Assembly: GCA_037127815.1 (NCBI GenBank)
Contig: JBAXXP010000001.1
Coordinates: 232,174 to 296,173 of the forward strand
Source: a bacterium
Lineage (GTDB): Bacteria; Patescibacteriota; Minisyncoccia; Phycocordibacterales; CAIZLB01
DNA: 64,000 bases
Reading direction: 5' to 3'
Position numbers and translations under genes: made by a program. Positions 11,997 through 42,594 of this stretch are shown here, one piece after another; the first letter of the stretch is position 1, and every line of letters begins with the position of its first letter. Under the pieces are notes generated by a model, which did not search any database, was not told the DNA's origin, and worked only from the letters and a program-made list of their open reading frames with translations.

Positions 11997-12560
11997 CTAT
12001 TTAACGCGCTCTACGTATTCTCCTGTTTCAGTGTTGATTCTAACCGTATCTCCTTCAACAACGAACATTGGTACGTTTAGTCCAGCCCCTGTCTCAAGAA
12101 CCACTAGCTTGTTTCCACTTTTTGATGAATCTCCACGAAGTACAGGAGGAGCTTCCTTAACTAGTAGCTCAACCTTTATAGGTAGCTTTACATTAAAGAT
12201 GTGTTCATTAAAGATTGAGGCTTCAACAATTGAGTTTGGCTTTAAGAATTTTCCACTGTTTCCAAGGACACTTTCATCAATCTTAAAACGAGCTGCTGGA
12301 TTGTTCTCTTCACAAAACCACCATTCTCCTTTATTTGCATATAGAAACTTGATTTTTTTTGTATCGATCTCAGCTGTGTGAACCTTGTCAGTAGCACCAA
12401 AAGAGTGCTCGACAATTCTTCCGTTTAATAAATTTCTTAACTTAGTATCGTTAACTGGCTTTCTCATTTGCTTTCTGAAAATATGAGAACTCATAACTTC
12501 ATAAGGCTCACCCTCGAAAACGATAAACTTCCTAACTGTAATTTCATTATAATCGTACAT
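11997..12560 (-). CDS. efp: Elongation factor P
   Basis: C-terminal GDTVRINTETGEYVERV and overall KOW/OB architecture. Confidence 0.85.
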   Translation of the reverse strand: MYDYNEITVRKFIVFEGEPYEVMSSHIFRKQMRKPVNDTKLRNLLNGRIVEHSFGATDKVHTAEIDTKKIKFLYANKGEWWFCEENNPAARFKIDESVLGNSGKFLKPNSIVEASIFNEHIFNVKLPIKVELLVKEAPPVLRGDSSKSGNKLVVLETGAGLNVPMFVVEGDTVRINTETGEYVERVK

Positions 12561-12701
12561 AATATGGCCATTGTAGACTATTAAAGAGGGGATGTCTATG
12601 CCATATCTGTACGTGAATAGACCTCAGAGATATCTAAAAATATTGTATTTCTTTATAAATTCTTTATGAAAACTGAAGAGTTGTTCTGATAGTATTTAGA
12701 G

Positions 12702-13100
12702 ATGTTCAAAAAATTTATAGATTGGATGCATAGTAAGAAAAGAATTGACTCAAAAGAAAGGGCCGAAACGGTTATTAAAGAAAGAGAGGTCTACTGGTGT
12801 TCCCTAGGAGAAAATATTGGTGATGAAGAAAATGGTAAAGGCACGGTGTTTCGTAGGCCTGTACTAATATTTAAAAAATTTAACAACCGTATTTTTTGGG
12901 GAATACCAATGAGTACGAAAAACAAGGTAAACATTTACTATTTAAAAGTAAAACTAAGAGACATGGAGCAGTCAGTAATGCTTTCCCAGTTGAGGATTTT
13001 GGATACTAAAAGACTCGATACAAAAATAGGATATCTATCTGAAGGTGATTTTATAAAAATACAAAATTCTATAATGGATATTATAAAAAATAAACGTTAA
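12702..13100 (+). CDS. MazF/PemK/EndoA-family endoribonuclease toxin (paralog 1), about 25-aa N-terminal extension
   Basis: EVYWCSLGENIGDEENGKGTVFRRPVLIF...IPMSTK...SQLRILDTKRLDTKIGYLSEGDF aligns with MazF/EndoA ([23 protein letters not shown] ... EQIRTIDKQRLTDKITHLDDEMM). Confidence 0.7.
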   Translation: MFKKFIDWMHSKKRIDSKERAETVIKEREVYWCSLGENIGDEENGKGTVFRRPVLIFKKFNNRIFWGIPMSTKNKVNIYYLKVKLRDMEQSVMLSQLRILDTKRLDTKIGYLSEGDFIKIQNSIMDIIKNKR

Positions 13101-13183
13101 GCCCGAGCTCTTTTGGAGCTCGGGCGTACGGGATAACCCATTTGTACTTATAGTTTATCAAATAATTTTTGCTTGTCAAATTT
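13101..13183 (+). repeat. GC-rich hairpin (GCCCGAGCTC-TTTTG-GAGCTCGGGC) followed by a conserved about 50-bp element (ATAACCCATTTGTA...TTATCAAATAATTTTTGCTTGTCAAA); copy 1
   Basis: Repeated almost identically after the second MazF paralog. Confidence 0.6.
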
Positions 13184-13296
13184 TGCTGGTTCTACAAGCG
13201 TTATGTGGTGTATGGGCGACTGGTAAATATATTTTATCTTCGGATTTTCTTTAACTTTTCTTTCAAGAAATAACAGTGCTGGCTTGTTAATATACT

Positions 13297-13689
13297 TTGA
13301 TGTTTAAAAAATTCACAGAATGGATTCATGCAAAGATTAATATCGATGAAAAAGAAAGAAAATCTCAAATTAAAGTAATGGAAGTATATTGGTGTGCTCT
13401 AGGTGAGAATATAGGTGATGAAGAGAACGGAAAAGGGGATGATTTTTGCCGCCCTGTCTTAGTGTTTAAGAAGTTTAATAATAATATATTTTGGGGTATA
13501 CCCATGAGTACTAAAGAGAAAGAGAGCATTTATTATATAAAGGTCAGGCTTTTGGACTCTGTGCGGTCCGTAATGATTTCTCAGGTTAGAACTTTAGATA
13601 CAAAAAGGTTGCTTAAAAAGATAGGCTATATATCAAGGGCAGATTTTACAATCGTACAAGACGCAGTAATCGGAATCATAAAAAACTAA
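13297..13689 (+). CDS. MazF/PemK/EndoA-family toxin (paralog 2; tandem duplicate of 12702..13100)
   Basis: About 65% identical to paralog 1 over its full length with the same motifs. Confidence 0.7.
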   Translation: MMFKKFTEWIHAKINIDEKERKSQIKVMEVYWCALGENIGDEENGKGDDFCRPVLVFKKFNNNIFWGIPMSTKEKESIYYIKVRLLDSVRSVMISQVRTLDTKRLLKKIGYISRADFTIVQDAVIGIIKN

Positions 13690-13697
13690 TTTTTTAT

Positions 13698-13785
13698 CCG
13701 CGCCTTTTTACAGCGCGGACGGTCGGAATAATCCATTTGTAACTAAAGTTTATCAAATAATTTTTGCTTGTCAAACTTTACTTTG
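13698..13785 (+). repeat. Hairpin (CCGCGCC...GGCGCGG) plus conserved about 50-bp element; copy 2
   Basis: AATAATCCATTTGTAACTAAAGTTTATCAAATAATTTTTGCTTGTCAAA matches copy 1. Confidence 0.6.
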
Positions 13786-13934
13786 CGTAATGTTTCTAAA
13801 ATTATTATTTACACAAGAAGTTCATTTGAGTAGGTGATTAATAAAAAAAGCGCCAAATTAATGACGCTTTTTATATTTAGAATACTTACATTGCACAGAC
13901 TGGCTAGTCTAGGTTCGGTATCACAATGTTACTC

Positions 13935-15191
13935 CTAAAGCTCCTTCAAATGGTCTCTAATCTTCTTCAAAATTTCATTACTAATTTTTGAGTTAGATTT
14001 TAAGAACTGACGAGTAGCATCATATCCACGTCCTAGTTTTTCATCGCCATAAGCGTAACTTGTTCCACTCTTTGTAATTATTTTTAGTTTCTCACCAAGT
14101 GCAATAAGCTCACCCTCTCTTGAAATTCCTTCATTGTACATAAGATCAAATTCTGTCTGTCTAAAAGGTGCAGCAACCTTGTTCTTTACAACCTTAACAC
14201 GAACACGTCCTCCCATTATTTCTTCGCCTTTTTTAATCTGAGCAATTCTTCTAATATCTAATCTAACAGAAGTATAGAACTTCAATGCCTTTCCACCTGG
14301 TGTTGTCTCTGGATTACCAAACATAACTCCAATTTGCATTCTAATCTGATTAATAAAGATAACAATTGTTTTACTTCTTGCAACAATGGCTGTTAGTTTT
14401 CTAAGTGCCTGTGACATAAGTCTTGCTTGTTTACCCATATGAGATGCACCCATATCTCCTTCAATTTCATCTTTTGGAGTAAGAGCTGCAACAGAGTCAA
14501 TAACAATAACGTCGAGCTTTCCTGATCTCACAAGACTCTCAACAATCTCCAATGCCTGCTCTCCGGTGTCTGGTTGTGATATTAAAAGTTCATCAATTTG
14601 AACACCAAGTCTTTTTGCATACTCTGGGTCCATTGCATGTTCTGCATCAATGAAAGCACAAATACCATCTTTCTTTTGAGCTTCTGCAATAACATGAAGT
14701 GAAAGAGTAGTCTTTCCTGACGATTCTGGCCCAAAGATTTCTATGATTCTTCCTCTAGGAAGTCCTCCTACGCCAAGCGCAGCATCCAACCCAATTGATC
14801 CTGTTGAAATTGCATTAACATCAACTCTTGGTTTTTCTCCAAGGCGCATAATTGCGTCATCGCCAAACTTAGTTTTAATTTGAGCAATAGTATCTTTGAT
14901 AGAAGAATTTAAATCTCTATCCTTGCTTGCTTTTTTCTTTGAACCAAAAGATGAACCTGAGCCAGATGATAGTAATGAAGAAAGGGAAGGGGAGTCAGAC
15001 TTTTCTTCGTCCTTTTCCGCCTCCTCATTATTTTCATCATCTGTTGCAACAGCTTGCTTTACATCAGCTGCTGTAGTTTTTTTCTTCACCTCCTCCTTAT
15101 CAGCTTTCTTTACCTTCACTTCCTCAGGTTTTTTACCAGCTACTTTTTTGTCATCAGCTTTCTTTTCCGGAACTATTTTTTTGTTTACCAT
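13935..15191 (-). CDS. recA: Recombinase RecA with about 85-aa Lys/Glu/Ser-rich N-terminal extension
   Basis: [13 protein letters not shown] Walker [46 protein letters not shown]. Confidence 0.9.
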
Positions 15192-30280: not shown

Positions 30281-31128
30281 AAAATCGCTCAACTTCAAGA
30301 AACGACGAACTCAGCATTCCTGAAATTTGAAAATTAAATTCTGTACCAGTTTTAGTGGATAACATTCATGTAGTTTAGGCCATGTGGCCGATGCTACCTG
30401 ATACGTATTCTGTTTGGTCTTTTCAATACTGGAGACAGAGCTCCATGAAGTACTACTTTAAGGGTAATGCTGCATGGGGTCGTTATCGTACTTACTCTCA
30501 AGGAGTATGATAACAAAACAGGTAACAAACAAAAGTGATTGTGGTCTTTTTATTTCCTAATAGGAAATATAAGGGCGTATGGTGGATGCCTTGACACAAC
30601 ATAGCGATGAAGGACGCAGCATGGCGGCGATACGCTTCGGGGAGGTGCCTAGCAACCTTTGATCCGGAGATTTCCGAATGGGGAAACCCAAGAGACTTGA
30701 TCTCTTATCTTACTTTTAAGTAAGGTGCGCACCCAGTGAAGTAAAACATTCTAGTAACTGGAGGAAAAGAAAACAAGTACGTAAGTACACAATTTCGTAA
30801 ATAGCGGCGAGCGAAAACGAAATAGCCCAAACCAGACTTCCACATTGGGGATGACATTTTATCGGTTCTTTAATTTATTAGGGAACTATCATTATGCTGT
30901 CTCCTATGTGGCAGTCTGGGGTTGTAAGATAATAATAGGATATTTATATCCAAAGAGTTACAAAATTTTTTGTTAACAGAACGCGTTGGGAAGCGCGACC
31001 AAAGAGGGTGACAGTCCCGTATGTGAAAATAAAAAATCTCTTCTTTATTACTCTTGAGTACCCCGAGACACGAGTGGCTCGGGGGAATCCAGCAGAACTA
31101 ACTGCTAAGGCTAAATATATGTTGTGAT

Positions 31129-31165
<37 letters not shown>

Positions 31166-32591
31166 CAGTCCGATGAGGACAGTGAAATAGACCTGAAACC
31201 ATATGCCTACAAGGAGTCAGAGCGGACGTATTTATACGATCCGTCATGGCGTGCCTATTGAAGAATGAGCCAACGAGTTAATATGTATTGCTCGGCTAAA
31301 TCCGCGAGGATGGAGCCATAGGGAAACCGAGTATTAATAGTGCGTCCGTATTACATATTAGACCCGAAGCCAATGCGAGCTATCCCTGGTCAGGCTGAAC
31401 TTTGTCGAAAGACAAAGGGAGGGCCGAACCCGTATGTCGTTCAACTCATTGGGATGAACTGGGGATAGAAGTGAAAAGCTAATCGAGCTTGGTAATAGCT
31501 GGTTCTCTCCGAAATAGCTTTTGGGTTAGCGTCGTGTGTTCCTCTTGGGGGTAGAGCACTGGAAGGACTCGACAGGGAGAAATCTCGCGAGTCCTATCAA
31601 ACTCCGAATACCAAGAACTAAAGCACGGCAGTTAGTCCGTGGGGGCTAAGCTCCACAGGACAAAAGGGAAACAGCCCTAGATCCATATTTAAGGTCCCTA
31701 AATCTATACTAAGTGCACTTAAGGTGGTGGAATTTCTGAGACAATGAGGAGGTTTGCTTAGAAGCAGCAATCCTTGAAAGATAGCGTAATAGCTCACTCA
31801 TCGAGAGATTCTGCGCCGCAGATTCGCGGGGCTAAAGTATAGTACCGAAACTTGGGGTGTCCTACTGCTTCGGCGGTAGGGCGCGGTAGGAGAGTGTTCT
31901 TGTCTGCGATGAAGGGGAAGAGGTGACTCACCCTGGAGCGTCAAGAAGTAAGAATGTTGGCACAAGTAACCACAATCGGAGTGAAAAACTCCGACGCCGA
32001 AAGAACAAGGTTTCCTTCGCAATGATTGTCATCGAAGGGTTAGTCGGGCCTAAGGGGATGGTGAGAACCGAACCCGACGGACACATGGTTAATATTCCAT
32101 GACTTCTGTATACAGTGATGAAATGACGGAGTGTAGTATGAACAGCGCATAATCGGATTTGTGTCCATGCTTTAAGGAAGTTCTCTAGGTAAGTCCGGAG
32201 AGCTGATTTTAATATCAATTCCAAATAGAGTGGAGACGTTAGGGGTTCGCCTCTAAATAATTGTTCAAAGCACGCTTCCAAGAAAATTTTCTAAACTTAT
32301 GTATGCGGAAACCGTACCGAAAACCGACACAGGTGTTCAGGTCGAGTAGACCAAGGCGAACGGGTGAGAGGTCTTCAAGGAACTCGGCAAAAAAGCAGCC
32401 GTAACTTCGGAATAAGGCTCGCCCTCCCTAAAAAGAGGGTTGCAACAAAAGTATCCCTGGCAACTGTTTATCAAAAACACAGCTCCCTGCGAACTCGTAA
32501 GAGTATGTATAGGGGGTGACACCTGACCGATGCCAGAAGGTTAAACGTTGAGGGTACTATCGCAAGGTAGTGCTGATTGATGTAAGCCCTG

Positions 32592-32626
<35 letters not shown>

Positions 32627-32987
32627 TCAGCATTTGTTTTTATTAATGAATGCTGAAGAACTAGGACTGTTCATAGATGTGTTGATAAATAATGAAGAAC
32701 CAAAGAATGCAAAGGAAAATTAGAGCTGCCTGTTTCAGTAAAATGAAGCGTTCAGACTGACTATATGCTGGTAAATCTGTGTGTGAAAAACACTGTAGTA
32801 TCTAACACTACTAAGTTATAAAATTCGAAAGAAAATTATTTCAAGTAAAAATGTGATTAGTGCAGACGATCAGCAGGAAAGACTAAAAAGTAATTTTTAG
32901 AATCCTCAGAAACCAAACGTCAGACTAAATAGTAATATTTAGAAGATAGAGTTCGATCTTTATAGCGATATAAAGTTAACATAAATT
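32627..32987 (+). mobile_element. Group I intron in 23S rRNA at the position equivalent to E. coli about 1931 (between CCUAAGGU and AGCGAAAUUCC); no ORF
   Basis: 361-nt insertion splitting a universally conserved 23S block. Contains group I core elements (CAGACTAAATA R-like, AGAAGATAGAGTTCGATC S-like). Boundaries +/- 2 nt. Confidence 0.7.
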
Positions 32988-33316
32988 AGCGAAATTCCTT
33001 GTCAGGTAAGTTCTGACGCGCACGAATGGTGTAATGACTGGGGAACTGTCTCGAAGACCCGCCCGGTGAAAATGCAATGGAGGTGAAGATGCCTCCTACC
33101 TGCAGCTAGACGAAAAGACCCCAGAAGCTTCACTGCAACTTGATATTGATTGTATGTTTTTACTGCGTAGAATAGATGGGAGAGGTTGAGATCCTGATTT
33201 CGGTTAGGGTGGACTCGTCAGTGAAATACCATTCTTTAAAAATATACATTCTAACCTCGACGGAAAAAACGTCGAGAGACAGTATCTGGTGGGCAGTTTT
33301 AGTGGGGCGCTATCCT

Positions 33317-33680
33317 CGAGGGTTTAAATTAATTTTTGAATCCTCGAACTATGGCGCCTCCAGAGATTTGTCATCTCGAAACAAATAAAAAAGGGGGACT
33401 GTAATAAGTAATTATTATTAGAAAAGTTAGTTATATGCTGGAAAATCTGTGTCTTCAATGACTTAGAATGCAAGCTACCTATTAATTTAGGTAACAATGT
33501 TTGCATGCAGACTATCAGCAGGAAAGATTTCTATCACAAAAAGTAAAATTGATGTAATAGAGAAATCCTCAGAGACTATACGCTAACCGTCCAGTAAAAT
33601 GGATGATGATATAGTCCGATCTTTATAGCGATATAAAGCTTACTGAAAAGTAAGGCTTAGTAAAATAAGTAACATAAATG
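33317..33680 (+). mobile_element. Group I intron in 23S rRNA inserted just 3' of the P-loop block (GGGGCGCUAUCCU | CCUAAAAAGUAACGGAGG; E. coli about 2260s); no ORF
   Basis: 364-nt insertion; 5' exon ends in U and intron ends in G. Shares core elements with intron 1 (TATATGCTGG-AAATCTGTGT, ATCAGCAGGAAAGA, GATGATATAGTCCGATC, AACATAAAT). Confidence 0.7.
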
Positions 33681-34066
33681 CCTAAAAAGTAACGGAGGAG
33701 TCTATTAAGGTCAGCTAGGCGCGAATGGAAACCGTGCCGATAGTGCAATGGCATAAGCTGGCTTGACTGTGAGGCGTAAGTGCCAAACAGACGCGAAAGC
33801 GGAGCATAGTGAACCGAGGGTCCGCATTAGATGCGGCCAAAGATTATCTGACAAAAGCTACTCTGGGGATAACAGGCTGGTTGTGCCTAAGCGTCCATAG
33901 CGACGGCACAGTTCGGCACCTCGATGTCGGCTCGACTTATCCTGGGGGTGAAGAAGCTCCCAAGGGTATGGCTGTTCGCCATTTAAAAAGTCACGCGAGC
34001 TGGGTTCAGACCGTCGTAAGACAGGTTGGTCTCCTATCTGCTGCAGGCGTTGATACTTGAGAGGAA

Positions 34067-34097
<31 letters not shown>

Positions 34098-34413
34098 TGA
34101 TCTCTGGTGTACCAGTTGTCTTGCCAAAGGCATCGCTGGGTAGCTATATCGGGAATGGATAAGCTCTGAAAGCATCTAAGAGCGAAGCCAACCTCAAGAT
34201 AAGGTATCGTTTGAGATCCGTGAGAGATTATCACGTTGATAGGCACTAAGTATAAGCATAGTAATATGTTCAGCTGAGGTGTACTAATAAATCGATTCTT
34301 ATTAGGAAATATGAAGATTCACGATCACTTTTGTTTGTGACCTAAATTACAAAATAATAATTCTGCAAGTTTTATTATAGAACCATGAAAAGACCTTTAA
34401 ATTGACCGTTTCG

Positions 34414-34523
34414 TTCTGGTGACTCGTCGGAGGGGCCACACCTGATCTCATTCCGAACTCAGAAGTTAAGACCTCCAGAGGCGATGATACTCACTTGTTG
34501 GGGAAAGTAGCTCGTCGCCAGAA
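34414..34523 (+). rRNA. rrf: 5S ribosomal RNA
   Basis: CCACACCTGATCTCATTCCGAACTCAGAAGTTAAG ... terminal helix TTCTGGTGAC / GTCGCCAGAA. Confidence 0.85.
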
Positions 34524-40414: not shown

Positions 40415-40602
40415 TACGACCACGCCACTGATGATTTTCACAAATCATTTGATTAAATCGCAGGGGGCCGTCCTAGGAATCTCCCAGGAATATTGAGTTA
40501 GGTAAAACTAATAAAATATTTCAGGCATTTCTAAAGACATCTTTGACAACTAAATGACAACCAACAAACGTCCTTTTTTTTGTTCTGTTTGAGTTTAATT
40601 TT

Positions 40603-42062
<1,460 letters not shown>

Positions 42063-42424
42063 GAACAATTCAATTTGAAAAATGCGTACATGAATTTCAT
42101 GTATTAGCTGAATACGGTTGATCGAACTTAATTTATTAAGCTCAATGAGATTATGCCTCGAGAATGCATAAGGAAGGTATAACCTAAATATACTGCCTCC
42201 TGGGAACAAGGCCAGGCCAAACAGAACAATAATAAGGACGGTTGAGGTTGTCATTTAGTCGCCAAAGTACATATTTTATATGATAAAAGTACTCCGCAAG
42301 CGGGGTTTTTTTATTGCTTTGTTTTTCTTAAAATAGTCTTTAAAATAGACTTGTTTTTAATGGGATAATTTGATACATTATAAACCACAAACAGCAAAGG
42401 TTTGACAAGTCTGTTTGTAAGAAT

Positions 42425-42498
42425 GCGTGTGTAGCTCAGCTGGTTAGAGCACTTCACTGATAATGAAGAGGCCGCAGGTTCGAGTCCTGCCACACGCA
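42425..42498 (+). tRNA. tRNA-Ile (anticodon GAU)
   Basis: GCGTGTGTAGCTCAGCTGGTTAGAGCACTTCACTGATAATGAAGAGGCCGCAGGTTCGAGTCCTGCCACACGCA; cloverleaf with CUGAUAA anticodon loop. Confidence 0.85.
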
Positions 42499-42594
42499 CA
42501 AAGTAAGTCTCAAGTTTGAATCTATAAGTTATAAAATCTGCAGGGTAACCTGTGGATTTTTTAATTGATTTTTGCAATATACCATATATGATAT

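What the first reader, a model, noticed from the sequence alone, without database searches (positions are those of the whole stretch)
12702..13790. Tandem duplicated MazF/PemK-like toxin genes with no antitoxin, each followed by a hairpin plus conserved 50-bp element
Two paralogous 130-aa MazF/EndoA-family proteins (about 65% identical) are encoded head-to-tail at 12702-13100 and 13297-13689. I found no upstream MazE/EndoAI-like ORF. The space before gene 1 is only the 140-bp divergent region shared with efp, and no usable small ORF exists on either strand. Each gene is followed by a GC-rich hairpin (13101-13125; 13698-13718) and a nearly identical about 50-bp element (ATAAYCCATTTGTA...TTATCAAATAATTTTTGCTTGTCAAA). 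Orphan toxin genes are unusual and should be toxic unless their activity is controlled differently. That could be through the about 25-aa N-terminal extension, by an RNA antitoxin encoded in the conserved downstream element (type III-like), or by a trans-acting antitoxin elsewhere.
Basis: partly seen in the sequence, partly recalled or inferred. Interest (0 to 1): 0.65.

Follow-up and report, generated by a model that had tools for sequence, protein, structure and literature searches.

The report
MazF toxins paired with small RNA
Each of the two MazF-type toxin genes lacks a protein antidote and faces a small structured RNA gene with its own promoter; this pairing recurs across many bacterial phyla, so the RNA is probably the missing antitoxin of a large undescribed toxin-antitoxin family.

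Summary
Two PF02452 MazF paralogs (66% identical) sit head to tail without a MazE-like gene. Each is followed by a GC hairpin and a near-identical element of about 55 bp.

On the opposite strand the element is a near-consensus sigma-70 promoter, TTGACA-16-TGnTAAACT. It points back at the toxin gene. The predicted start is the A of a conserved ACAAAU. The RNA it would make has:
- a free 5' tail ACAAA(U);
- a 4-bp tetraloop mini-hairpin;
- a 3-5 nt linker;
- the GC hairpin, which is often an intrinsic terminator in that orientation.

This module is present in 72 of 73 evaluable homologous loci, from CPR phyla to Rickettsiales, Bdellovibrionales and Chloroflexi. Both stems show compensatory changes. 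G-U pairs outnumber A-C by 52 to 7, which marks the RNA strand. No conserved protein partner exists. RNA genes survive without a toxin, while a toxin without the RNA was seen once.

No Rfam family, PADLOC model or paper found describes it. I read it as a type III-like system in which the RNA mimics a MazF substrate or product. Function is inferred, not shown.

The parts
12660..12701 (+). Promoter of mazF-like gene 1. It holds the conserved TTCTTTATGAAAA (12660-12672, with a -35-like ATGAAA at 12666-12671), TG at 12687-12688 and the -10 TAGTAT at 12690-12695. Six bases follow before the A of the ATG, so the mRNA is predicted to be leaderless.
   Evidence: Read from the sequence. The same TGnTAnnnT, six bases, then ATG, and the same upstream motif, recur in most CPR loci. 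No transcript data.
12702..13100 (+). mazF-like toxin gene 1 (132 aa). It has an N-terminal helix of about 24 aa, the MazF beta core and a C-terminal helix.
   Evidence: PF02452 at 46.1 bits. The AF2 model has pLDDT 82. The 50 best Foldseek PDB matches listed are MazF-family toxins, including MoxT, YdcE and a B. cereus interferase. R52 and S71 align with the catalytic Arg and Thr of S. aureus and B. subtilis MazF.
13082..13145 (-). Small RNA gene 1. The predicted 5' end is A13145 (ACAAAU). The mini-hairpin hp2 spans 13129-13140 (U-GGG UUAU CCC-G) and the linker 13126-13128. Hairpin hp1 spans 13101-13125. The 3' end is uncertain, somewhere around 13082-13100.
   Evidence: R1 covariance model, 83.5 bits. 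The fold is -27.4 kcal/mol with z = -6.98. Covariation supports both stems.
13146..13179 (-). Promoter of small RNA 1. The -35 TTGACA is at 13174-13179, the spacer is 16 nt, the extended -10 is TG-A-TAAACT (hexamer 13152-13157), and six bases separate it from the +1 position.
   Evidence: Promoter scan, 10 of 12 matches plus TG. The same geometry is found in 62 of 78 loci on this strand, against 6 on the other strand and 11 in shuffles.
13285..13299 (+). Promoter of mazF-like gene 2. TG is at 13285-13286 and the -10 TAATAT at 13288-13293. Six bases follow before the ATG at 13300.
   Evidence: Read from the sequence and compared with other loci.
13300..13689 (+). mazF-like toxin gene 2 (129 aa counted from the ATG). 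An in-frame TTG at 13297 was the ORF lister's start.
   Evidence: PF02452 at 50.2 bits. It is 66% identical to gene 1. The sequence is identical to database protein P0060.
13677..13740 (-). Small RNA gene 2. The predicted 5' end is A13740. hp2 is GGA UUAU UCC at 13725-13734 (RNAfold predicts three pairs; the flanking U13735-G13724 wobble is an optional fourth). This is a compensatory G-C to A-U change relative to RNA 1. hp1 spans 13696-13720. The 3' end is uncertain.
   Evidence: R1, 69.2 bits. The fold is -18.8 kcal/mol with z = -3.69.
13741..13774 (-). Promoter of small RNA 2. The -35 TTGACA is at 13769-13774, the spacer is 16 nt, and the extended -10 TG-A-TAAACT has its hexamer at 13747-13752.
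   Evidence: Promoter scan. The 27 bp that cover the five 3' bases of the -35 hexamer, the spacer and most of the -10 are identical to copy 1.

Best explanation
Each unit is a compact two-gene toxin-antitoxin module. One gene is a leaderless, catalytically intact MazF-family endoribonuclease carrying a family-specific N-terminal helix. The other is a convergently transcribed small RNA of about 45-90 nt with its own strong promoter.

The RNA has the layout 5'-ACAAA(U), then a 4-bp tetraloop hairpin, a 3-5 nt linker, and a GC hairpin or terminator. I propose that this RNA is the antitoxin. I further propose that it acts mainly by binding the MazF dimer directly, in the type III manner. Its single-stranded 5' ACAAAU would sit in the RNA-binding groove as a substrate or product mimic. 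MazF enzymes cut 5' of or within ACA-type motifs, using the 2'-OH of the preceding nucleotide. An RNA that begins at the A of ACA has no such nucleotide at that first position. The hairpins would supply affinity, cognate specificity and stability.

If transcription stops, for example through phage shut-off or loss of the module, the RNA would decay and free the RNase.

Shown here: the RNA gene anatomy, its strand, stem covariation, tight linkage to the toxin gene, and the absence of a conserved protein partner.

Inferred: that the RNA is expressed, its exact ends, toxicity of the protein, direct RNA-protein binding, and the mimicry mechanism.
For: Toxin identity:
- PF02452 match, MazF fold and conserved catalytic Arg and Ser/Thr.

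Promoter and predicted start:
- A minus-strand promoter, TTGACA, 16-18 nt, TAnnnT, is found in 62 of 78 loci, 40 of them with a TG extension. The plus strand gives 6 and shuffles give 11.
- In nearly all loci, six bases separate the -10 from the A of A(C/U)AAAU.

RNA structure:
- All 20 diverse RNAs tested fold into the same two-hairpin shape with a free 5' tail. Their z-scores run from -1.6 to -7.6.
- hp1: all 10 pairs carry compensatory changes. For the structure as a whole 93.8% of cells pair, against 76.8% when shuffled, and 0 of 500 shuffles reach that.
- hp2, on a plain MAFFT alignment of 22 distant RNAs: all 4 pairs are compensatory, 94.3% of cells pair against 56.7%, and the covariation score is 0.92 against 0.21, with 0 of 500 shuffles reaching it.
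- G-U cells number 52 against 7 A-C cells, which marks the minus strand as the RNA strand.
- An RNA-sense intrinsic terminator is present in 27 of 60 loci.

Linkage to the toxin:
- The module is present in 72 of 73 evaluable loci across phyla. It is also present at the third paralog of this genome.
- No conserved upstream ORF exists.
- Extra or toxin-less RNA genes occur. L140, a near relative, has one mazF and three RNA genes. L055 has a second RNA gene with its own promoter, and L056 and L061 have a second tandem RNA unit. A toxin without the RNA was seen only once, in L042.

Against pure antisense:
- In 11 loci a bidirectional terminator lies between the toxin stop codon and hp1. The toxin mRNA there would not overlap the conserved part of the RNA.

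Precedent:
- Single structured RNAs that inhibit protein toxins by direct binding are known: AvcID (PMC10511110) and AbiF/RCd22 (bioRxiv 10.1101/2025.04.15.648962).
Against: - There is no expression, toxicity or binding data. Everything rests on sequence comparison.
- The cleavage specificity of this MazF subfamily is unknown. ACA in a six-base A-rich tail is weak evidence on its own.
- The toxin genes show no depletion of ACA, ACAAA or related words.
- In L016, L018 and L026 an insert of 16-22 nt separates the -10 from the motif. The RNA therefore does not always begin at ACA.
- Some distant loci carry AUAAAU, CUAAAU or ACAGU instead.
- In the window and in most CPR loci the GC hairpin has no U-run on the toxin strand. 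The toxin transcript probably reads through the RNA gene, so antisense pairing and transcriptional interference are also possible there.
- One intact homolog (L042) lacks the RNA.
Confidence: 0.55

Rival explanations
1. A type I-like cis-antisense system. The convergent small RNA pairs with the 3' end or 3' UTR of the toxin mRNA, or the two facing promoters interfere with each other. That would trigger degradation or lower toxin expression, as in B. subtilis txpA/RatA or bsrG/SR4, without any contact between RNA and protein.
For: - The genes are convergent and their 3' ends abut or overlap. hp1 starts 0-25 nt after the stop codon, or inside the ORF in L005, L037, L044 and P0025.
- In the window there is no U-run after hp1 on the toxin strand, so read-through across the whole RNA gene is likely.
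- In L012, L015 and L023-25 the RNA terminator lies inside the last codons of the toxin gene.
Against: - A cis-antisense RNA is complementary whatever its sequence. Antisense action alone does not explain the phylum-wide conservation of a free 5' ACAAAU, a fixed distance from the -10 to the start, and a covarying 4-bp hairpin.
- In 11 loci a bidirectional terminator separates the toxin stop codon from hp1, which removes overlap with the conserved part.
- Extra RNA genes stand without a toxin gene opposite them (L140, L055).
- Known type I toxins are mostly small membrane peptides.
Confidence: 0.2
2. The toxin is controlled by its conserved N-terminal helix acting as an in-cis autoinhibitor (a fused antitoxin), or by an unlinked protein antitoxin. 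On this view the small RNA has some other role, for instance as a substrate, a regulator of other genes, or a transcription terminator and insulator.
For: - The extension of about 24 aa is conserved family-wide, with M-x-K-x-F-x-x-W and invariant F5 and W8, and is predicted to be a helix over residues 2-17.
- Canonical MazF structures lack this extension.
- Only 64 kb of the genome could be inspected.
Against: - This does not explain why a promoter-bearing structured RNA gene stays with the toxin gene in 72 of 73 loci set in unrelated neighbourhoods.
- It does not explain why RNA genes multiply or persist when the toxin gene is lost.
- A helix that co-occurs with the RNA throughout the family could equally be the RNA-binding element.
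- No MazE-like partner was seen near any copy.
Confidence: 0.1
3. This is not a toxin-antitoxin pair but a dedicated ribonucleoprotein. A MazF-derived RNA-binding or processing protein and its partner RNA would work together on some other target.
For: - Protein conservation is very high for a toxin family, with mean column identity of 70%.
- Several diverged copies, each with its own RNA, are kept in very small genomes.
Against: - The catalytic residues are retained.
- The distribution is patchy across unrelated phyla and neighbourhoods. Pseudogenised toxins (L029, L031, L063, L066) and leftover RNA genes are typical of selfish or defence modules.
Confidence: 0.08

Closest known systems
Type III toxin-antitoxin systems ToxIN, CptIN and TenpIN (RNA antitoxin bound by an endoribonuclease toxin)
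   Same: The toxin is a sequence-specific endoRNase of the Kid/MazF-like fold class. The proposed antitoxin is a small structured non-coding RNA that carries the toxin's own recognition-type motif. A few loci have two or three RNA units (L056, L061, L140). Activation by loss of a labile RNA would work the same way.
   Different: - The toxin here is a true PF02452 MazF, not ToxN, CptN or TenpN.
- The RNA is a single unit, not an array of tandem repeats.
- The RNA gene lies downstream and convergent with its own promoter, not upstream in the same operon behind a terminator.
- No pseudoknot is predicted.
- Processing of the RNA by the toxin is not required in most loci.
Non-repeat RNA antitoxins that bind protein toxins: AvcID, and AbiF with RCd22
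   Same: A single structured small RNA encoded next to the toxin gene inhibits the protein by direct binding (PMC10511110; bioRxiv 10.1101/2025.04.15.648962).
   Different: The toxins are unrelated: a dCTP/dCMP deaminase and an Abi_2/HEPN-like protein. The RNAs are unrelated too. For the present module, binding has not been tested.
Type II MazEF, PemIK and Kid-Kis
   Same: The toxin family, fold and catalytic residues are the same. The closest solved structures are S. aureus MazF and B. subtilis EndoA/MazF, both of which cut U^ACAU (the cleavage site is from my own knowledge).
   Different: No MazE, PemI or Kis gene is present here or in 76 related loci. The toxin carries an extra N-terminal helix, its mRNA is predicted to be leaderless, and its partner is an RNA gene.
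Type I systems with 3'-overlapping convergent antisense RNAs (txpA/RatA, bsrG/SR4), and the nuclease-type type I toxins SymE and RalR
   Same: The small RNA gene is convergent and abuts the 3' end of the toxin gene. Antisense pairing is geometrically possible in many loci.
   Different: The RNA has a conserved sequence and structure that do not depend on complementarity. In 11 loci a terminator prevents overlap. The toxin is a 130-aa RNase.

Membership tests
MazF/PemK toxin family (PF02452) | Sequence match to the family profile above the curated threshold | tested here: met
   46.1 and 50.2 bits against a cut-off of 23.1. A PDB profile search finds S. aureus MazF and B. subtilis EndoA.
MazF/PemK toxin family (PF02452) | SH3-like beta-barrel MazF/Kid fold | tested here: met
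   The AF2 model has pLDDT 82. The 50 best Foldseek PDB matches listed are MazF-family toxins, with E down to 9e-7.
MazF/PemK toxin family (PF02452) | Catalytic Arg and Thr/Ser (Arg25 and Thr48 in B. subtilis MazF numbering; residue roles from my own knowledge) | tested here: met
   R52 is invariant and S71 is nearly invariant (S or T) in 30 homologs. They align with the VRP Arg and the AAIT Thr of S. aureus MazF.
MazF/PemK toxin family (PF02452) | Sequence-specific endoribonuclease activity and toxicity | not testable with these tools
   Needs expression and cleavage assays.
Type II MazEF module | An adjacent, co-transcribed protein antitoxin gene (MazE/PemI; AbrB or RHH fold) | tested here: not met
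   No such ORF is present in the window. The upstream ORFs of the related loci form no conserved family, and the neighbours are unrelated housekeeping genes. The antisense ORF inside the toxin gene is not maintained.
Type III toxin-antitoxin systems | A protein endoRNase toxin with a non-coding RNA partner encoded beside it | tested here: met
   An RNA gene with promoter, covarying stems and strand-specific G-U pairs lies next to the toxin in 72 of 73 evaluable loci.
Type III toxin-antitoxin systems | An antitoxin made of tandem direct repeats upstream of the toxin in one operon, separated from it by a terminator | tested here: not met
   The RNA is a single unit, lies downstream and convergent, and has its own promoter. 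Only L056, L061, L055 and L140 have two or three units. In L140 and L055 each unit has a promoter found by the scans or visible in the sequence; in L061 a weak one is seen by eye only, and L056 was not checked.
Type III toxin-antitoxin systems | The RNA binds and inhibits the toxin protein, and the toxin processes the RNA | not testable with these tools
   Needs co-purification, EMSA and in vitro cleavage.
Type I toxin-antitoxin systems | An antisense RNA that base-pairs with the toxin mRNA | tested here: inconclusive
   Overlap is possible in the window because there is no toxin-sense terminator. In 11 loci a bidirectional terminator sits before hp1 and excludes overlap with the conserved RNA core.
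Type I toxin-antitoxin systems | A small hydrophobic peptide toxin | tested here: not met
   The toxin is a soluble MazF-fold protein of about 130 aa.
Any described RNA family (Rfam 15) | Match to a curated covariance model | tested here: not met
   Nothing in the region reaches a gathering score. At E up to 10 nothing relevant appears.

The most novel reading that the evidence does not exclude
This would be a new and very large class of RNA-antitoxin system, with at least 1,500 protein clusters at 50% identity. In it the archetypal type II toxin MazF is neutralised by a promoter-defined small RNA whose first nucleotides are the enzyme's own recognition motif. Because the RNA starts exactly at the A of ACA, it has no nucleotide 5' of that first ACA to supply the attacking 2'-OH, so it would be a built-in mimic of the 3' cleavage product that cannot be cut at that position. 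This inhibition principle has not been described for any toxin-antitoxin pair. It could be the main addiction or defence module of CPR bacteria and of other symbiotic or predatory lineages.
Probability: 0.3. Interest if true: 0.88.

Novelty: new variant of a known kind. Interest (0 to 1): 0.8.

Why it matters
MazF is the textbook type II toxin, and MazF genes without MazE are usually written off as orphans or annotation gaps.

A conserved partner RNA would show that one toxin fold has been captured by both protein and RNA antitoxins. It would explain a large set of apparently solitary MazF genes, about 1,570 clusters at 50% identity. It would add a new structured RNA family that is absent from Rfam.

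It would also give a first handle on toxin-antitoxin or abortive-infection biology in CPR/Patescibacteria, where this genome alone keeps three modules. The RNA is short, with about 45 nt of conserved core. The model makes sharp predictions about the start site, ACAAAU and the compensatory hp2 mutants. It is therefore directly testable in E. coli.

Tried and rejected
- **Small protein antitoxin upstream.** ORFs of at least 35 aa upstream of the toxin in the related loci form no conserved family. The ATG inside the conserved TTCTTTATGAAAA is not conserved.
- **Peptides read from the element on the minus strand.** The window has 32-aa and 26-aa ORFs that start at the TTG of TTGACA. They cover a promoter spacer that is not conserved between genomes, so I rejected them.
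- **Antisense ORF inside the toxin gene.** These are 47 and 54 aa in the window. The frame is open for at least 45 aa in only 29 of 40 homologs, and a second frame does nearly as well, so this is a by-product of composition.
- **Integron attC or another mobile-element repeat.** I considered this from a GTTAAGC next to hairpin 1. It is absent in copy 2, so I dropped it.
- **Known RNA families.** There was no Rfam match, including the pemK motif I recalled from memory.
- **Defence-system models.** PADLOC and NCBIfam gave no hits.
- **Viral contigs.** No relatives were found.
- **Metagenome scan with a 16-mer of the RNA.** Almost all hits were chance matches, at 28.7 bits or less with R1. Only L093, L125 and L140 were real, so this scan was poorly spent.
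- **Model R1.** It is too sequence-specific to find the distant RNA classes even with filters off. MAFFT could not align hp1 across classes. hp1 covariation therefore rests on the close class and hp2 covariation on the distant class.
- **Depletion of ACA-type words in toxin genes.** None was found.
- **My first fixed-offset hp2 test.** It was badly designed, giving 4 of 22 after dereplication. One search replaces it.
Full report
**1.

The window carries two head-to-tail ORFs, at 12702-13100 and 13297/13300-13689. Both match PF02452 (PemK/MazF) at 46.1 and 50.2 bits against a cut-off of 23.1. They are 66% identical. Upstream lies efp on the other strand (11997-12560), which leaves 141 bp. Downstream lies recA (13935-15191, minus strand).

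Each ORF is followed by a GC hairpin, at 13101-13125 and 13696-13720, and then by about 55 bp that are nearly identical between the copies. The coding DNA is clearly less conserved than this element. A 27-mer from the element occurs exactly twice in the window, with 0 expected by chance. There is no MazE-like ORF.

**2. The proteins are real MazF enzymes with an extra N-terminal helix**

- A profile of 30 homologs finds S. aureus MazF and B. subtilis EndoA/YdcE in the PDB.
- An AlphaFold model (pLDDT 82) shows a helix over residues 2-17, then the MazF beta core, then a C-terminal helix.
- The 50 best Foldseek PDB matches listed are MazF-family toxins.
- R52 is invariant and S71 nearly so. They align with the catalytic Arg and Thr of the Gram-positive MazFs (the residue roles are from my own knowledge).
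- The family is highly conserved, with mean column identity of 70%, and this includes the N-terminal M-x-K-x-F-x-x-W.
- The family is large. 1,572 cluster representatives at 50% identity match at E of 1e-10 or better, and nearly all of the 150 listed match over almost the full profile, the N-terminal extension included.
- NCBIfam and PADLOC have no specific model for it.

**3. What the downstream element is**

Read on the minus strand, the element is a near-consensus promoter: TTGACA, a 16-nt spacer, then TG-n-TAAACT. The two copies lie at 13179-13152 and 13774-13747. They point back toward the toxin genes. Six bases after the -10 comes ACAAAU, then GGGUUAUCCC (GGAUUAUUCC in copy 2), a short linker, and the GC hairpin.

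I fetched 76 loci that encode relatives from one genome per species. Their identity to the window protein runs from 80% down to about 31%. They come from Parcubacteria, Paceibacteria, Saccharibacteria, Gracilibacteria, Peribacteria, Rickettsiales, Bdellovibrionales, Caldilineaceae, Limisphaerales, Acidobacteriaceae and Crocinitomicaceae.

In almost every locus the same layout follows the stop codon. On the strand opposite the toxin it reads:
- a -35 box;
- a spacer of 16-18 nt with no conserved sequence;
- a -10 box, TG-extended in 40 of the 62 promoter-positive loci;
- six bases;
- A(C/U)AAAU;
- a 4-bp stem with a tetraloop (hp2);
- a linker of 3-5 nt;
- a stem of 6-11 bp (hp1).

A stringent promoter pattern is met on that strand in 62 of 78 loci. 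The toxin strand gives 6 and shuffles give 11. A strict whole-architecture detector fires in 48 of 76 loci on that strand, against 1 on the other strand and 0.3 in shuffles.

Counting variants checked by eye or with the covariance model, the RNA gene is present in 72 of 73 evaluable loci. It is absent only in L042. L027, L063 and L068 are truncated or disrupted and cannot be judged. The third paralog of this same genome (P0025) has the module too.

**4. It is an RNA, and it is made from the minus strand**

- Twenty diverse sequences each fold on their own into the same two-hairpin shape with a free 5' tail of four to six nt. Their z-scores run from -1.6 to -7.6.
- On the model-fitted alignment of the close class, all 10 hp1 pairs show compensatory changes. 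For the structure as a whole 93.8% of cells pair, against 76.8% when shuffled, and 0 of 500 shuffles reach that. Slid controls give 55% or less.
- On a plain MAFFT alignment of 22 distant RNAs, all four hp2 pairs are compensatory (UA/CG/GU, GC/UA, CG/AU/GC, CG/GC). 94.3% of cells pair against 56.7%. The covariation score is 0.92 against 0.21, with 0 of 500 shuffles reaching it.
- The two window copies themselves differ by a compensatory G-C to A-U change in hp2.
- In the stems, G-U cells number 52 and A-C cells 7. The structure is therefore selected on the minus strand. RNAfold agrees: the minus strand is more stable in 33 of 48 cases (Wilcoxon p = 0.0075).
- In 27 of 60 loci an intrinsic terminator in the RNA's orientation follows. 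It is either hp1 itself, giving an RNA of about 45-55 nt, or a third hairpin, giving about 80-90 nt.
- No Rfam family matches the region.

**5. Linkage and the missing protein partner**

Upstream neighbours differ from locus to locus: an ABC ATPase, EF-P, GyrB, thymidylate synthase and others. No conserved small ORF is present.

The toxin gene has its own conserved promoter, TGnTAnnnT, followed by six bases and then the ATG. This predicts a leaderless mRNA. The unit is therefore a self-contained module of about 0.6 kb with two facing promoters, found in varied contexts and in several copies per genome. That pattern is typical of toxin-antitoxin or defence modules.

The asymmetry expected of an antitoxin is also seen. 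RNA genes occur in excess or without a toxin. L140, a near relative with the same recA neighbour, has one mazF followed by three RNA genes, each preceded by a promoter-like sequence. L055 has a second RNA gene with its own promoter, and L056 and L061 have a second tandem RNA unit. An intact toxin without the RNA was seen once.

**6. Mechanism**

Two RNA-antitoxin modes are possible.

*Direct binding, type III-like.* I favour this mode for three reasons:
- A free 5' ACAAAU at a fixed distance from the -10 is conserved across phyla, and so is hp2 as a structure. A cis-antisense RNA needs neither.
- ACA-type motifs are what MazF enzymes recognise. The closest solved relatives cut U^ACAU (my own knowledge).
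- In 11 loci a bidirectional terminator lies between the toxin stop codon and hp1. The toxin mRNA there would not overlap the conserved RNA core.

An RNA that starts at the A of ACA has no upstream nucleotide whose 2'-OH could perform the cleavage at that first ACA. It would therefore be a product-like mimic that cannot be cut there. This step is inference only. L016, L018 and L026 have a 16-22 nt insert before the motif, so the rule is not absolute, and those RNAs might be trimmed by the toxin.

*Antisense action or transcriptional interference, type I-like.* This remains plausible in the window, where hp1 lacks a U-run on the toxin strand and read-through is likely. It may act alongside direct binding.

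The N-terminal helix co-occurs with the RNA throughout the family. It could be the RNA-binding element or an autoinhibitor. I could not tell which.

**7. Comparison with what is known**

The module works most like a type III system. It fails the defining type III architecture, which is tandem repeats upstream in the same operon. Its toxin belongs to the type II MazF family, yet the type II partner is absent.

Single structured RNAs that inhibit protein toxins by binding are known: AvcID (PMC10511110) and AbiF/RCd22 (bioRxiv 10.1101/2025.04.15.648962). Both involve unrelated toxins and unrelated RNAs.

Full-text searches found no paper that describes a MazF with an RNA partner, or this RNA. The library is limited to open-access papers and preprints, so prior description elsewhere cannot be ruled out.

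**8. Verdict**

The finding is a new variant of a known kind: an RNA-antitoxin system built on MazF.

| Claim | Confidence |
|---|---|
| The element is a small RNA gene functionally coupled to the toxin | about 0.85 |
| The RNA is the antitoxin, by either mechanism | about 0.75 |
| It acts mainly by direct binding as a substrate or product mimic | about 0.5 |

Noticed in passing
window 12687-12704 and 13285-13302; loci: Both toxin genes, and most CPR homologs, have an extended -10 (TGnTAnnnT) exactly six bases before the ATG and no Shine-Dalgarno sequence, so the toxin mRNAs are predicted to be leaderless. A conserved TTTCTTTATGAAAAnTTT covers the -35 region. Whether it is only a promoter or UP element, or also an operator, is unknown.
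   Followed up: partly
window 13154-13180 vs 13749-13775; L077 3458-3484: The promoter region of the small RNA, from the -35 through the spacer into the -10, is identical between the two window copies (27 of 27) and differs at one base in the third paralog, although the toxins are only 66-70% identical. In other genomes with several paralogs (L001, L002, L003) the spacers differ. Gene conversion or a genome-specific regulator site might explain this. It remains unexplained.
   Followed up: partly
L140 300-640 (minus strand): A close relative of the window genome, with the same recA neighbour, has one mazF followed by three tandem small RNA genes about 110-135 nt apart, each preceded by a promoter-like sequence. 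The third resembles window RNA 2 but has a degraded hp1. This looks like toxin loss that left RNA genes behind.
   Followed up: partly
L061 3399-3560; L056 3378-3500: In two Saccharibacteria-type loci two RNA units follow one toxin gene in tandem. Their 5' motif is ACAAU or ACAGU rather than ACAAAU.
   Followed up: no
L019 2431-2817; L046 2445-2837: A second, more distant MazF-like paralog (MKKYDDWNKVKQ..., 128-130 aa) lies directly upstream of the family member. These are tandem MazF genes from different subfamilies.
   Followed up: no
L072 3001-3400: The toxin ORF has in-frame stop codons; the first replaces the conserved glycine of the family's LGEN motif. If they are TGA this would suggest genetic code 25, although the record is labelled Peribacteria. 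The codons were not read, and the second interruption aligns with Asn rather than Gly. The RNA gene is intact.
   Followed up: no
L097 4130-4467: A 31-nt unit repeated 10.9 times (ATCCCTTGCGGTCGCCCGCTACAAATGGGTT) contains the same ACAAATGGGTTATCCC word as the RNA. It lies just upstream of a 575-aa UvrD-like helicase gene in a GC-rich contig. This is probably coincidence, but it has the form of a repeat-array RNA.
   Followed up: partly
window 30556-34523 and 40596-42499: The 23S rRNA spans 3,753 nt against a 2,925-nt model and contains a group I intron (33367-33638) plus further inserted sequence. The order is 23S-5S, then about 6 kb, then 16S and tRNA-Ile. The unlinked rRNA genes and the intron would fit a CPR/Patescibacteria genome (my own knowledge).
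   Followed up: no
window 13935-15191 (minus strand): RecA is 418 aa long and has an N-terminal extension of about 95 aa rich in Lys, Glu and Ser. The L140 relative has the same feature.
   Followed up: no
loci: Outside the CPR, the hosts of this module are largely Rickettsiales and Bdellovibrionales, plus single Caldilineaceae, Limisphaerales, Acidobacteriaceae, Rhizobiaceae and Crocinitomicaceae MAGs. The bias toward symbiotic or predatory lineages may be real, or it may reflect sampling of freshwater metagenomes.
   Followed up: no
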